IMG/VR virus record: IMGVR_UViG_2851976983_000005
Strand: one strand, 5' to 3'
Length of the DNA stretch: 42,303 nt
Source of the DNA: a virus
Lineage: Duplodnaviria > Heunggongvirae > Uroviricota > Caudoviricetes
Within the stretch, counting starts at the first letter, position 1; every line of letters starts with the position of its first letter. The position numbers are program-made. This document shows, piece by piece, positions 30,501-33,500 of the stretch.

Positions 30501-33500
30501 ACCCGCATTCACAGTACGCGCCAAAAGCCAGCCCGACATTTACCGGAACCCCCAAAGCGCCAACGCCAGCGGCGGGGAATAATACCACGCAGGTTGCGAC
30601 CACTGCGTTTGTACAGGCGGCACTGACGGCCCTTATTAATGGTGCGCCAGCCACGCTGGACACGCTGAAAGAAATAGCCGCAGCCATTAACAATGATCCG
30701 AATTTCAGTACCACCATTAACAATGCGCTGGCACTAAAAGCACCGTTGTCGAGTCCGGCACTCACCGGAACGCCAACAGCCCCCACGGCGGCGCAGTCGG
30801 TCAACAATACACAGATTGCCACTACGGCTTTTGTGAAATCGGCGATTGCAGGAATGGTGGGTTCTGCACCTGCTGCACTGGATACACTGAACGAACTGGC
30901 GGCGGCACTGGGGAATGATCCGAACTTTGCCACGACAATGCTTAATGCGCTGGCAGGTAAACAACCGCTGGACAATACGCTTACCAATTTGAGTGGAAAG
31001 GATGTAGCTGGTCTTCTCACATACCTTGGTTTGGGAGAAGGCTCTGCATTAACTGTTGGTGTCCCTGTTCCGTGGCCTTCAGCCACTCCGCCAACAGGCT
31101 GGCTGAAATGCAATGGTGCGGCTTTTTCTGCTGAAGAATACCCGGAACTGGCAAAAGTTTACCCGACAAATTAATTGCCTGATTTACGTGGTGAGTTTAT
31201 TCGCGGCTGGGATGACGGAAGAGGAATTGATACTAACCGTAGCTTGCTTTCATCACAGGGCGATGCCATTCGAAATATAATTGGTGCATTAGTGGATGTC
31301 AGGTTTAATACCTATCCTTCTGATTCTGGTGCTTTTACAACCAGCGTCATCGGAGATGCTTCATCTGATTCAATTAAAGGTGGTTATGCAAAGCGAGTAA
31401 CATTTGATGCTTCCAGAGTTGTTCCAACTGCAAACGAAAACCGTCCGCGTAATATTGCATTTAACTATATCGTGAGGGCAGCCTGATGCATAAAGCAATA
31501 TTAAATAGTGAGCTTATTGCAACCAAGGCAGGGGATGTTACCGTTTATAACTACGATGGTGAAACACGGGAATATATTTCCACGTCAACTGAATATCTTG
31601 CTGTTGGTGTCGGTATTCCGGCATGTTCCTGTCTTGATGCACCTGGCATACATAAGGTTGGTTATGCTATCTGTCGTTCTGTGAATTTAAATTCATGGGA
31701 ATATGTGCCAGATCTTCGCGGTGAAATCGTCTATAGCACCGAAACAGGAGAATCGAAAGAAATCACAGCTCCGGGTGATTATCCTGAAAATACAACCACT
31801 ATCGCCCCGTTAACGCCATACGATGAATGGAATGGTGAGAAATGGGTGACAGATACCGAGGCACAGCACGGCGCAGCAGTAGATGCAGCAGAAGCACAGC
31901 GCCCGGTGCTGATTGATACTGCATGGCTCCACAGTTATTCAATGATTACGCCGACGGCTAGCAGGCAGAAACATCCGCCGCTGTGCTGGATCATTGACCG
32001 GTGACGGCAAAGATCCAGCACAGCGCCGGATGTATCTGCCTGACTGCCGAGGCGTAGGCCATTCAATATCTGGCGCCAGTATGATCAGCTCATGGCAGAT
32101 GCCATATGTGCAGTTCCTCATTCAGACGACCGATGCTGCTTTCCAGCCATTGCTTACCGTTCTGTATTCGTTCTGTCACTCATTTCTCATCAGCCCAGCA
32201 AGTTGCTTAACGGGGCGAAGTTTACCCAGGAAATCACCCAGCTGGATTTTACCTCAGAGCGTTTCCATGAAACCAGTCACCGCGATATTGGCCGTCTACC
32301 CATGAATTTAAATTCACAGTGACAAGATAAAAAGCATTTTGTCGGTGAATCAAGTCGACATTAATACCCACCCCCATATTCAGTTGAATTAGATTTCGTG
32401 TATGCGCAAGCGGCTTTGAATTTGACCCGGTCAACAATCGCTGCGCTAACAAAAGGGGCTCCATTAGTCGCGTAGATCACAGAATTGACCAGCGAAGGAT
32501 TGATGGAAAGGCAAGCATTAGGAAAGGCAACCGGCCATGAGTCATCAACAACGACCATATTACCGTCGGTAGATTGCGGCACTGATAGCGTCTTCCACTG
32601 AAGCAATGCTGTTCGTTGTACTCCACCAATTAATACTGGAATAGTGATGTTACCTGCACTGCTGGCTAATGCTGTCGCAGCAGGCATTTTCGCTGCTTCT
32701 CCCAAACCAACGTTTAAGAAAATGCAGAGGTAACAGCTAACTGGCATCATCTCCGGTTTTTATTCAGGGGGATGATCATGCTTATTGGCTATGTACGCGT
32801 GTCAACAAATGACCAGAACACCGATTTGCAACGTAATGCACTGAACTGCGCGGGATGTGAGCAGATTTTTGAGGACAAAATCAGTGGCACTAAGTCCGAC
32901 AGACCGGGGCTGAAAAAACTACTCAGGACACTATCGGCAGGAGACACGCTGGTTGTCTGGAAGCTGGACAGGTTGGGGCGCAGTATGCGGCATCTTGTTA
33001 CGCTGATAGAAGAGTTGCGCCAGCGTGGTGTGAATTTCAGAAGCCTGACTGACAGTATTGATACCAGTACCCCAATGGGCCGTTTCTTTTTTCATGTCAT
33101 GGGTGCCCTGGCTGAAATGGAACGCGAACTGATAGTTGAACGTACCAGGGCAGGGCTGGCTGCAGCTCGTGCCAAAGGCAGAGTAGGTGGACGCCGTCCT
33201 AAGTTGACCACCGAACAGTGGGCACAGATTGGGCGTTTACTCGAGGCCGGAGAATCAAGACAGCGTATTGCACTGATTTTTGATGTAGGCGTTTCTACCA
33301 TTTATAGAAAATTTCCGGCAAATAAGATCAATGAATCCCCCTGAATCAGCATTATGTTGATTATCCCTGCAAGCAGACAAATACCGTTATTTTGTGTGAA
33401 TAACGACACAACTGCGCTTAGCTGTTTGTCAGGCACAATCACTTCAACATAGGGCGAAGCCTAATCCAATCAGGAGGTTCGCCACTATGGCTCAGGATTA

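What the first reader, a model, noticed from the sequence alone, without database searches (positions are those of the whole stretch)
31014..32722. Invertible tail-fibre segment bounded by inverted gix/hix-like crossover sites, with Gin-type invertase downstream
Seen in sequence: two 26-bp sites in inverted orientation (31014..31039 and 32697..32722) share an identical 14-bp half-site plus core and match the TTnTCnnAAACC half-site pattern. The first lies inside the fibre gene at codon ~350; the second lies inside the 5' part of a minus-strand ORF encoding an unrelated C-terminus. A Gin/Hin-family invertase gene follows at 32778. Established knowledge: the Mu G, P1 C and e14 P segments switch fibre C-termini and host range this way. 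Inference: this prophage carries a ~1.7-kb host-range switch, which P2 itself does not.
Basis: partly seen in the sequence, partly recalled or inferred. Interest (0 to 1): 0.5.

Follow-up and report, generated by a model that had tools for sequence, protein, structure and literature searches.

The report
Pin-type invertible tail-fibre switch, damaged copy
This is an ordinary, already well-known DNA-flipping switch that lets a P2-family prophage swap the tip of its tail fibre; the one unusual point is that the copy written in this window is damaged in a way that looks more like a sequencing or assembly defect than biology.

Summary
Two 26-bp sites (31014-31039 and 32697-32722) lie in inverted orientation. 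They share an identical inner half-site plus core (TTCTCCCAAACCAA) and sit in frame in the fibre gene and in a minus-strand alternative C-terminus. An intact 188-aa serine invertase follows at 32778.

Two clonal E. coli isolates carry a related prophage with sites of identical sequence, and they differ only by an exact inversion of the DNA between those sites. The closest classical system is e14 Pin (85% identical invertase, same inner half-site), followed by P1 Cin (77%) and Mu Gin (74%). Inversions of this kind in P2-like prophages are already published, and the same invertase protein occurs in thousands of assemblies. It is therefore known biology.

- The fibre has an in-frame stop at 31172 (K399*).
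- The block 31924-32382 is the intact relative's sequence with 148 bases lost in 81 tiny deletions. This truncates tfa and destroys tfa'.

Every base substitution relative to a near-identical prophage falls inside the segment; 31 kb outside it differs only by 24 single-base indels. This points to a consensus artefact, possibly from mixed orientations, and is unproven without the reads.

The parts
29978..31013 (+). Constant N-terminal part of the tail-fibre gene (Sc), upstream of the crossover site
   Evidence: ORF from 29978. Pfam Phage_tail_fib, E = 8e-65, over residues 1-150. Identical to the fibre of phage 500465-1 over this part.
31014..31039 (.). Left crossover site (pix/cix-like): TTCTCACATACC-TT-GGTTTGGGAGAA, core at 31026-31027, encoding ...LLTYLGLGE
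   Evidence: The same 26-mer forms one inversion breakpoint between the clonal isolates SW071611 and SW071619.
31040..31486 (+). Variable fibre C-terminus now in the expressed position (Sv; StfE/Mu S-like tail-collar domain), interrupted by an in-frame stop
   Evidence: Pfam Collar, E = 1.5e-9. Near-identical to e14 StfE over ...GEGSALPVGVPVPWPSATPPTGWLKCNG.... The reading frame continues after the stop to 31486.
31172..31174 (+). In-frame TAA (Lys399 to stop; AAA in the intact relative)
   Evidence: The 398-aa product is not on record in the assemblies collection.
31486..32004 (+). Tail-fibre assembly gene tfa (TfaE-like). Normal to about codon 146, then garbled and 28 aa short
   Evidence: Pfam Caudo_TAP. 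Comparison with the 200-aa Tfa of the relative and with e14 TfaE. The 172-aa product is not on record.
31924..32382 (.). Deletion-riddled block: the relative's 606-nt stretch with 148 bases missing in 81 short runs, no insertions, 10 substitutions
   Evidence: No closer natural allele in E. coli genomes, phages or plasmids.
32008..32360 (-). Remnant of the second assembly gene tfa' (147 aa in the relative); no open reading frame left
   Evidence: Three-frame translation shows only fragments (NAFYLV..., NGKQW..., APDIEWPTP). Alignment to the reference tfa'.
32361..32696 (-). Alternative fibre C-terminus Sv' (gp53-like/YfdL-like), silent in this orientation; its last ~7 codons are altered by the damaged block
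   Evidence: ORF 32361-32750. Pfam Gp53-like_C, 23.7 bits, just under the cut-off. In-silico inversion gives an in-frame 465-aa fibre ...TYLGLGEAAKMP.... Relatives carry this part fused to the fibre.
32697..32722 (.). Right crossover site: TTCTCCCAAACC-AA-CGTTTAAGAAAA, core at 32709-32710
   Evidence: Matches the pinE-proximal e14 site at 25 of 26 positions. Forms the other inversion breakpoint in SW071611/SW071619.
32778..33344 (+). Serine DNA invertase (Pin/Cin/Gin family), 188 aa, apparently intact
   Evidence: Pfam Resolvase plus HTH_7. 85% identical to PinE, 77% to Cin and 74% to Gin. Matches Gin structures 3UJ3/4M6F at E = 3e-93. The identical protein occurs in 5469 blocks of assemblies.
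32796..32867 (+). Stretch homologous to the annotated recombinational (Fis) enhancer of P1 cin (gene nt 19-90)
   Evidence: P1 annotation. Identity 56/72 to P1, 53/72 to Mu, 63/72 to e14. The distance from the crossover-site centre is 96.5 bp, against 95.5 bp in Mu and e14. Function is inferred, not tested.

Best explanation
What it is. The locus is a Pin/Cin/Gin-type (Din-family) site-specific inversion switch for the tail-fibre tip. It is carried by a 186/Fels-2-like member of the P2 family (Peduoviridae) integrated beside ssrA.

How it most likely works:
1. The 188-aa serine invertase (32778-33344) binds as dimers to the two 26-bp sites.
2. With host Fis bound to an enhancer in the first ~90 nt of its own gene, about 96 bp from the right site, it cuts both sites at the central TT/AA dinucleotide.
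3. It rotates one pair of half-sites by 180 degrees and religates, flipping the DNA between the sites.
4. Both sites encode ...GLGE in frame, so the constant fibre part (codons 1-354) is joined either to Sv (collar-type tip, followed by its chaperone tfa) or to Sv' (gp53-like tip, followed by tfa'). The result is particles with two alternative receptor specificities.

Shown versus inferred. Shown here: the sites, the preserved frames, the intact invertase, and actual inversion at identical sites in a relative. Inferred from the family: Fis/enhancer dependence, cleavage chemistry and the host-range consequence.

This particular copy is defective as written (stop at 31172, tfa truncated, tfa' destroyed). 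The defects are most likely errors of the consensus sequence: about 0.8 for the deletion-riddled block and about 0.6 for the stop codon. They may have arisen because the sequenced culture held both orientations.
For: Sites and frames.

Inversion in nature at the same site sequences: SW071611 versus SW071619 have flanks with 0 mismatches and an interior 1845 bp that is an exact reverse complement, with the breakpoints inside 26-mers identical to the window's (gene tables). Other genomes show either tip fused to the fibre next to the identical invertase.

Family assignment:
- Invertase identity is 85% to PinE, 77% to Cin and 74% to Gin, with Gin structures at E = 3e-93.
- The Ser9 motif is present, as are the invertase-specific Q150/R153/L154 and K46/K47/R50. 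These correspond to Hin Q151/R154/L155 and residues 47/48/51, described as unique to Fis-dependent invertases (PMC3798978).
- The e14 sites share the inner half-site plus core; the Mu and P1 sites have the same 12-2-12 plan.
- Enhancer homology and site-to-enhancer spacing are conserved.

Literature: inversion in P2-like prophages of EPEC shown by sequencing and PCR (PMC4272514); Fels-2 fibre inversion by fin (PMC7953296).

Artefact reading of the damage:
- There are 0 substitutions in 31 kb outside the segment, against 5 substitutions (all transversions) plus the block inside it.
- The block shows 461 matches, 10 mismatches, 148 deletions in 81 runs and 0 insertions, against a null of about 322 matches and 122 mismatches.
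- What remains is enriched for agreement with the flipped orientation (79% versus 59%) and includes a 21-nt exact match that random deletions never produced.
- None of the three aberrant proteins is on record anywhere.
- The sister record shows its own patch of deletion-type errors.
Against: - No reads are available, so inversion in this genome and the artefact origin of the lesions are both unproven.
- The five isolated substitutions, including the stop codon, are not the bases the flipped orientation would contribute.
- The artefact model does not explain why only the right-central part of the segment is hit.
- If the lesions are real, the switch is a relic in this strain.
- The synonymous-site test for an enhancer constraint was inconclusive.
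- No promoter signal above chance was found.
- The prophage also carries an IS21-family insertion, so it may not produce particles at all.
Confidence: 0.88

Rival explanations
1. The lesions are real. In this strain the switch is a decaying relic: the expressed fibre is truncated at codon 399, and both chaperone genes are damaged. The invertase may still flip the segment, but neither orientation yields a functional fibre and host range is not switched.
For: The sequence as given contains the stop and the damaged block. The five substitutions are not explained by the mixed-orientation model. The prophage carries an IS insertion, so relaxed selection on virion genes is plausible.
Against: - 81 micro-deletions with no insertion and only 10 substitutions in about 600 bp is not a natural mutation spectrum.
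- 31 kb of flanking prophage has no substitution at all relative to the intact relative.
- All 5 isolated substitutions are transversions.
- The deletions are biased toward leaving sequence that matches the other orientation.
- No such allele exists in 5426 E. coli genomes, phages or plasmids.
Confidence: 0.2
2. The segment inverts, but its selected role is for the host and not for phage host range. Inversion in a resident or cryptic prophage would create fibre-derived proteins that alter the cell surface or block adsorption of other phages, as reported for PinQ/PinR of the Qin and Rac cryptic prophages.
For: Abstracts of PMC12529663 and bioRxiv 10.1101/2025.03.28.646004 report such a role for related Pin recombinases. 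The prophage here has an IS insertion and carries a bSEFIR defence gene.
Against: Nothing in this window tests it. The module sits in the standard position of an otherwise complete virion gene set. Intact relatives keep both tip and chaperone pairs, as expected for virion function.
Confidence: 0.05
3. The inverted repeat is a chance or merely homologous feature (the conserved ...GLGE coding motif of fibre genes), and no recombination occurs there.
For: The half-site motif alone is not rarer than chance.
Against: There is an exact inversion with breakpoints in identical 26-mers in clonal isolates. An intact family invertase lies adjacent. The site is identical to e14's. The 14-mer pair is rare in shuffles.
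Confidence: 0.01

Closest known systems
e14 cryptic prophage P segment with PinE (E. coli K-12)
   Same: - The invertase is 85% identical (157/185).
- The inner half-site plus core TTCTCCCAAACCAA is identical, and the pinE-proximal site matches at 25/26.
- Gene order is the same: fibre, tfa, inverted tfa', inverted tip, invertase.
- The Sv tip and Tfa are StfE/TfaE-like.
- The spacing from site to invertase gene is the same (95.5 versus 96.5 bp).
   Different: e14 is a lambdoid remnant whose fibre genes are themselves partly pseudogenes. Here the module sits in a P2/186-like prophage between the H/G-equivalent genes and the sheath gene. The second tip is gp53-like and not StfP-like.
Phage P1 C segment with Cin and cixL/cixR
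   Same: The invertase is 77% identical. The sites are 26 bp with perfectly repeated inner half-sites (TTCTCTTAAACC) and an AA/TT core. The enhancer is annotated at gene nt 19-90, and the window is 56/72 identical to it. It also switches the fibre tip together with a chaperone.
   Different: In P1, cin points toward the segment and cixL overlaps its 3' end, so the enhancer is about 0.5 kb from the site. The P1 segment is 4.2 kb and lies on a plasmid prophage with a different virion type.
Phage Mu G segment with Gin and gix
   Same: The invertase is 74% identical. The layout is the same, with the invertase downstream of the segment and transcribed away from it. The site-to-gene spacing is the same. 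The cargo logic is S/U versus S'/U'.
   Different: The Mu half-sites are TTATCC/TTCCTG-type. The segment is 3 kb. The phage is transposable.
Invertible fibre segments of P2-like prophages (EPEC E2348/69; Salmonella Fels-2 fin)
   Same: The phage family and module position are the same. Coexisting orientations were shown by sequencing and PCR in EPEC (PMC4272514), and the Fels-2 fibre inversion is attributed to the pin homologue fin (PMC7953296).
   Different: One of the EPEC loci has three repeats and four variants; this window has only two sites. I did not compare their sequences with the window.
Escherichia phage 500465-1 (NC_049342, Wadgaonvirus) and the prophages of E. coli 503440 and 2011C-3911
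   Same: This is the same element. Window 11315-42303 aligns to record positions 1-31121 with no substitution outside the segment, and the sites and invertase are identical.
   Different: The relative has an intact 502-aa fibre, a 200-aa Tfa, a 147-aa Tfa' and a 131-aa Sv' in an 1857-bp segment. The window has the stop codon and the 148-base loss.
Salmonella Hin/hix flagellar switch
   Same: It belongs to the same recombinase subfamily and uses a Fis/enhancer mechanism. The invertase-specific Fis-contact residues and basic helix-B residues are conserved, and there is about 100 bp between the site and the proximal Fis site (PMC3798978).
   Different: Hin flips a promoter, not coding sequence. 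The correspondence of residue numbers to Hin (offset of one) rests on my knowledge of the Hin sequence and not on a tool result.

Membership tests
Din-family (Hin/Gin/Cin/Pin) serine DNA invertase systems | Small serine recombinase: N-terminal catalytic domain with the nucleophilic serine (Ser9 in Gin numbering) and a C-terminal helix-turn-helix domain | tested here: met
   Pfam Resolvase E = 2e-53 plus HTH_7 E = 1.5e-15. The YVRVSTNDQ motif and full-length alignment to Cin, Gin and PinE. Gin structures at E = 3e-93 over residues 1-184.
Din-family (Hin/Gin/Cin/Pin) serine DNA invertase systems | Two 26-bp sites in inverted orientation, each made of two 12-bp half-sites around a 2-bp core, with the cores identical when read in inverted orientation | tested here: met
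   TTCTCACATACC-TT-GGTTTGGGAGAA and TTCTCCCAAACC-AA-CGTTTAAGAAAA. The plan is the same as gix, cix and the e14 sites.
Din-family (Hin/Gin/Cin/Pin) serine DNA invertase systems | The DNA between the sites actually inverts | tested here: met
   Met for sites of identical sequence in a related prophage (97% identical invertase): clonal isolates SW071611 and SW071619 differ by an exact inversion with breakpoints in the sites. For the window's own genome it cannot be tested without reads.
Din-family (Hin/Gin/Cin/Pin) serine DNA invertase systems | Fis-bound recombinational enhancer in cis (inside the 5' part of the invertase gene in Hin, Gin and Cin) | tested here: inconclusive
   A homologous stretch lies at 32796-32867 (56/72 identical to the annotated P1 enhancer, 63/72 to e14). 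Spacing to the site is conserved at 96.5 bp versus 95.5 bp. G-N13-C candidates are centred at gene nt 29 and 78. Synonymous-site conservation is not clearly higher than in the rest of the gene. Fis binding was not tested.
Din-family (Hin/Gin/Cin/Pin) serine DNA invertase systems | Residues that contact Fis/enhancer and are conserved only in invertases (Hin Q151, R154, L155; basic residues at Hin 47, 48, 51) | tested here: met
   Q150, R153 and L154 are invariant in the window, Cin and Gin, and K46, K47 and R50 are present. The feature definition comes from PMC3798978. The one-residue offset to Hin numbering is from my knowledge.
Phage tail-fibre host-range switches (Mu G, P1 C, e14 P type) | The constant fibre N-terminus joins in frame to either of two unrelated C-termini across the crossover site | tested here: met
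   In-silico inversion keeps the frame (...TYLGLGE|AAKMP..., 465 aa). Relatives are annotated with either fusion.
Phage tail-fibre host-range switches (Mu G, P1 C, e14 P type) | Each alternative tip is complete and followed by its own intact assembly chaperone | tested here: not met
   In this window Sv is cut by TAA at 31172, tfa is garbled from about 31924, and tfa' has no ORF. The feature is met in the intact relative. The failure is probably a sequence artefact.
Phage tail-fibre host-range switches (Mu G, P1 C, e14 P type) | The two orientations give particles with different host range | not testable with these tools
   This needs induction of locked-orientation lysogens and plating on host panels.
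Multiple-inversion systems (p15B Min; three-repeat P2-like locus of EPEC; shufflons) | More than two crossover sites, giving more than two arrangements | tested here: not met
   Only the two sites carry the half-site motif in the whole 42-kb window, and there is no further 14-mer copy with up to 2 mismatches.
Phage P2 proper (Peduovirus P2) H-G fibre module | A single fibre gene H and chaperone G followed by the fun(Z) slot and FI, with no invertase | tested here: not met
   The P2 record shows J, I, H, G, fun(Z), FI. The window has tfa', Sv' and an invertase between the chaperone and the sheath gene.

The most novel reading that the evidence does not exclude
The damage confined to the invertible segment (five transversions plus 81 micro-deletions, against no substitution in 31 kb of flanking prophage) is real. 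On this reading it reflects a mutational process targeted to the segment, for example error-prone repair or template switching provoked by repeated or aborted invertase action between the convergent, paralogous chaperone genes.
Probability: 0.03. Interest if true: 0.55.

Novelty: already known. Interest (0 to 1): 0.1.

Why it matters
As biology it adds little. Fibre-tip inversion by Pin/Cin/Gin-type invertases is textbook, it has been shown in P2-like prophages, and this exact invertase is present in thousands of assemblies.

The practical value is twofold. First, annotation: the 398-aa 'fibre', the 172-aa 'Tfa' and the missing tfa' in this sequence should not be taken as evidence of pseudogenisation without checking the reads. 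Second, method: invertible segments are places where consensus sequences can go wrong. A patch of deletion-only errors confined between two crossover sites may itself be a sign that both orientations were present in the sequenced culture.

Tried and rejected
1. I first read the divergent block as a mosaic of forward tfa' and reverse-complemented tfa patches (k-mer map, three-way MAFFT). Gap-tolerant alignment then showed it is simply the reference block minus 148 bases. The resemblance to the other strand survives only as a bias in which bases were lost.

2. I predicted that the five isolated substitutions carry the base contributed by the flipped orientation. Under six scoring schemes this was not borne out.

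3. A rigid-flip coordinate model for the reverse-strand matches did not fit; offsets were 90-290 bp (reasoned).

4. I searched for a natural allele resembling the block in E. coli genomes, phages and plasmids. Nothing was closer than about 75%.

5. Exact-sequence look-ups of the three aberrant proteins returned nothing. The look-up works for the invertase.

6. The synonymous-site test for an enhancer constraint was inconclusive.

7. The promoter and terminator scan found nothing above shuffles.

8. NCBIfam gave no family above its cut-off for the invertase, tips or chaperone.

9. A third crossover site (shufflon-like) was not found.
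Full report
**1. The observation**

The two proposed sites are present exactly where stated. Window 31014-31039 reads TTCTCACATACCTTGGTTTGGGAGAA and 32697-32722 reads TTCTCCCAAACCAACGTTTAAGAAAA. They are reported as an inverted pair (I3). Read inward, both carry the same half-site plus core, TTCTCCCAAACCAA, and the central dinucleotides are TT and AA, i.e. inverted.

The 12-nt half-site motif on its own is not rarer than chance (3 matches against 2.4 expected). 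However, all three matches in the 42-kb window fall in these two sites. The exact 14-mer pair reached that count in only 2 of 100 shuffles.

The left site spans codons 346-354 of the fibre ORF that starts at 29978. The right site spans codons 10-18 of a minus-strand ORF, 32361-32750. A 188-aa resolvase/invertase-family gene starts at 32778.

**2. Anatomy and context**

The genes around the finding are baseplate J (28436-29383), tail protein I (29376-29981), the fibre (29978 onward), tfa (31486-32004), the invertase and the sheath gene (33487-34659). This is the P2-family order J-I-H-G-FI, with extra genes in the slot where P2 itself carries fun(Z) and no invertase.

The prophage has an integrase (6557-7597), a 186-type CI repressor (7601-8239) and CII (8625-9134). 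It abuts tmRNA (41244-41606) and smpB.

Window 11315-42303 is collinear with Escherichia phage 500465-1 (NC_049342, genus Wadgaonvirus). That record annotates the intact module as a 502-aa fibre, a 200-aa Tfa, a 147-aa Tfa' (minus strand), a 131-aa alternative tip (minus strand) and a 188-aa DNA invertase.

**3. Does it invert?**

Their flanks are identical (0 mismatches). The 1845 bp between the sites is an exact reverse complement. The breakpoints lie inside 26-mers that are identical in sequence to the window's two sites.

In one isolate the fibre is 516 aa with the collar-type tip. In the other it is 467 aa with the gp53-like tip. Strain 4314 and several loci that hold the identical invertase protein also show the alternative fusion.

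Inverting 31027-32709 in silico leaves both sites unchanged. It joins the constant part in frame to the other tip (...TYLGLGE|AAKMP..., 465 aa). The site pair is therefore a working crossover pair in nature. Whether it works in this particular genome cannot be tested without reads.

**4. Family**

- *Recombinase.* The invertase is 85% identical to e14 PinE, 77% to P1 Cin and 74% to Mu Gin. It matches the Gin crystal-structure sequences at E = 3e-93. It has the Ser9 motif.
- *Fis-contact residues.* It also has the residues that the Hin literature describes as conserved only in Fis/enhancer-dependent invertases. Q150, R153 and L154 correspond to Hin Q151, R154 and L155. K46, K47 and R50 correspond to Hin 47, 48 and 51. 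The one-residue offset is from my own knowledge of Hin.
- *Sites.* The e14 sites (CTCTCGAAAACCTTGGTTTGGGAGAA and TTCTCCCAAACCAACGTTTATGAAAA) share the inner half-site and core with the window. The Mu gix and P1 cix sites have the same 12-2-12 plan.
- *Enhancer.* The stretch homologous to P1's annotated enhancer (cin nt 19-90) is window 32796-32867. It is 56/72 identical to P1 and 63/72 to e14. The distance from the crossover centre to nt 29 of the gene is 96.5 bp, against 95.5 bp in Mu and e14. This agrees with the roughly 100 bp described for Hin. A synonymous-site test for extra constraint there was inconclusive, so enhancer function remains inferred.

**5.

Against the intact relative there is not one substitution in 31 kb outside the segment. 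The only differences there are 24 single-base indels at 12448-19282, and in that stretch it is the reference that has split genes.

Inside the segment there are five substitutions, all transversions. One of them turns Lys399 of the fibre into a stop (AAA to TAA at 31172).

There is also a block, 31924-32382, that aligns to the relative with 461 matches, 10 mismatches, 148 missing bases in 81 short runs, and no insertion. Unrelated or shuffled sequence gives about 322 matches and 122 mismatches. The block removes the last ~54 residues of Tfa, all of Tfa' and the last residues of the alternative tip.

No allele closer than about 75% exists in 5426 complete E. coli genomes, in phage records or in plasmids. 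None of the three aberrant proteins is on record in a collection where the invertase is found in 5469 blocks.

**6. Origin of the damage**

A deletion-only spectrum next to flanks with no substitution is not how genes decay; it is how poor consensus sequence looks. The deletions are also not random. What remains agrees with the flipped orientation more than the intact block does (79% versus 59%). It also contains a 21-nt exact match to the reverse complement of tfa, whereas 500 random-deletion simulations never exceeded 13 nt.

In the flipped state tfa occupies the slot of tfa' on the same strand. A pile-up of reads from both orientations, in which the minority mostly votes 'gap', would give this pattern. 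If that is correct, the damage is indirect evidence that the sequenced culture contained both orientations.

The weak points of this reading are:
- the five isolated substitutions are not the bases the flipped orientation would supply;
- I cannot explain why only the right-central part of the segment is affected;
- other repeat-related assembly problems, such as several P2-like prophages in one genome, could do the same.

I put about 0.8 on an artefact for the block and about 0.6 for the stop codon. The alternative is a genuine relic.

**7. Novelty**

None as a kind. Fibre-tip inversion by Gin, Cin and Pin is classical. Coexisting orientations in P2-like prophages of EPEC were shown by sequencing and PCR (PMC4272514). 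The Fels-2 fibre inversion is attributed to the pin homologue fin (PMC7953296). The same element is deposited and annotated in NC_049342. More than half of complete E. coli genomes hold something similar to this stretch (2695 of 5426).

**8. Verdict**

The element is already known and interest is low. The useful addition is the warning that the coding defects in this copy are probably not biological.

Noticed in passing
window 16539-17972 (+): A 477-aa bSEFIR/TIR-type anti-phage defence gene (PADLOC bSEFIR E = 1e-102; Pfam SEFIR plus TIR_2) lies in the prophage's variable region just before the portal gene. In the reference record NC_049342 it appears only as a 143-aa 'TIR domain-containing protein' fragment.
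   Followed up: partly
window 13565-15366 (-): An IS21-family insertion sequence (IS100-like; istA 340 aa, istB 260 aa, both intact here) is inserted just downstream of the replication gene A (11276-13555). The prophage may therefore be impaired regardless of the fibre switch.
   Followed up: partly
window 1-8239 and 41244-42303: The prophage abuts tmRNA (41244-41606, minus strand) and smpB (41821-42303). To the left of the prophage integrase (6557-7597) lies a second integrase (3996-5267), preceded by a HEF_HK histidine-kinase-like / Response_reg_2 gene pair (1-3469). This looks like two islands in tandem at the ssrA locus.
   Followed up: no
window 40638-41120 (-): A 160-aa ORF at the prophage end has no Pfam match and only a weak PADLOC hit (PDC-S48, E = 2e-7). 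It is annotated 'DNA ligase' in NC_049342, which looks like a mis-annotation.
   Followed up: no
window 12448-19282 versus L003 (NC_049342) 1133-7952: The public record lacks 20 single bases and has 4 extra relative to the window. This splits its portal, terminase and IS genes, so the record has its own patch of deletion-type sequence errors. The window is the better copy there.
   Followed up: partly
L020 (GCA_028498695.1 DANFSC010000044.1) 3325-9313: In this draft contig the fibre-switch module and invertase lie in the opposite orientation to both the tube gene on one side and the I/J baseplate genes on the other. No sheath gene is called between them. This is either a larger rearrangement or a mis-assembly at the invertible region.
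   Followed up: no
E. coli 503440 NZ_CP025881.1, 2448184-2448872 and 2483031-2485479: The same genome holds two copies of the tfa/tfa' block about 35 kb apart on opposite strands, and 7 places match the query overall. Several P2-like fibre modules in one genome could confuse assemblies of this region.
   Followed up: no
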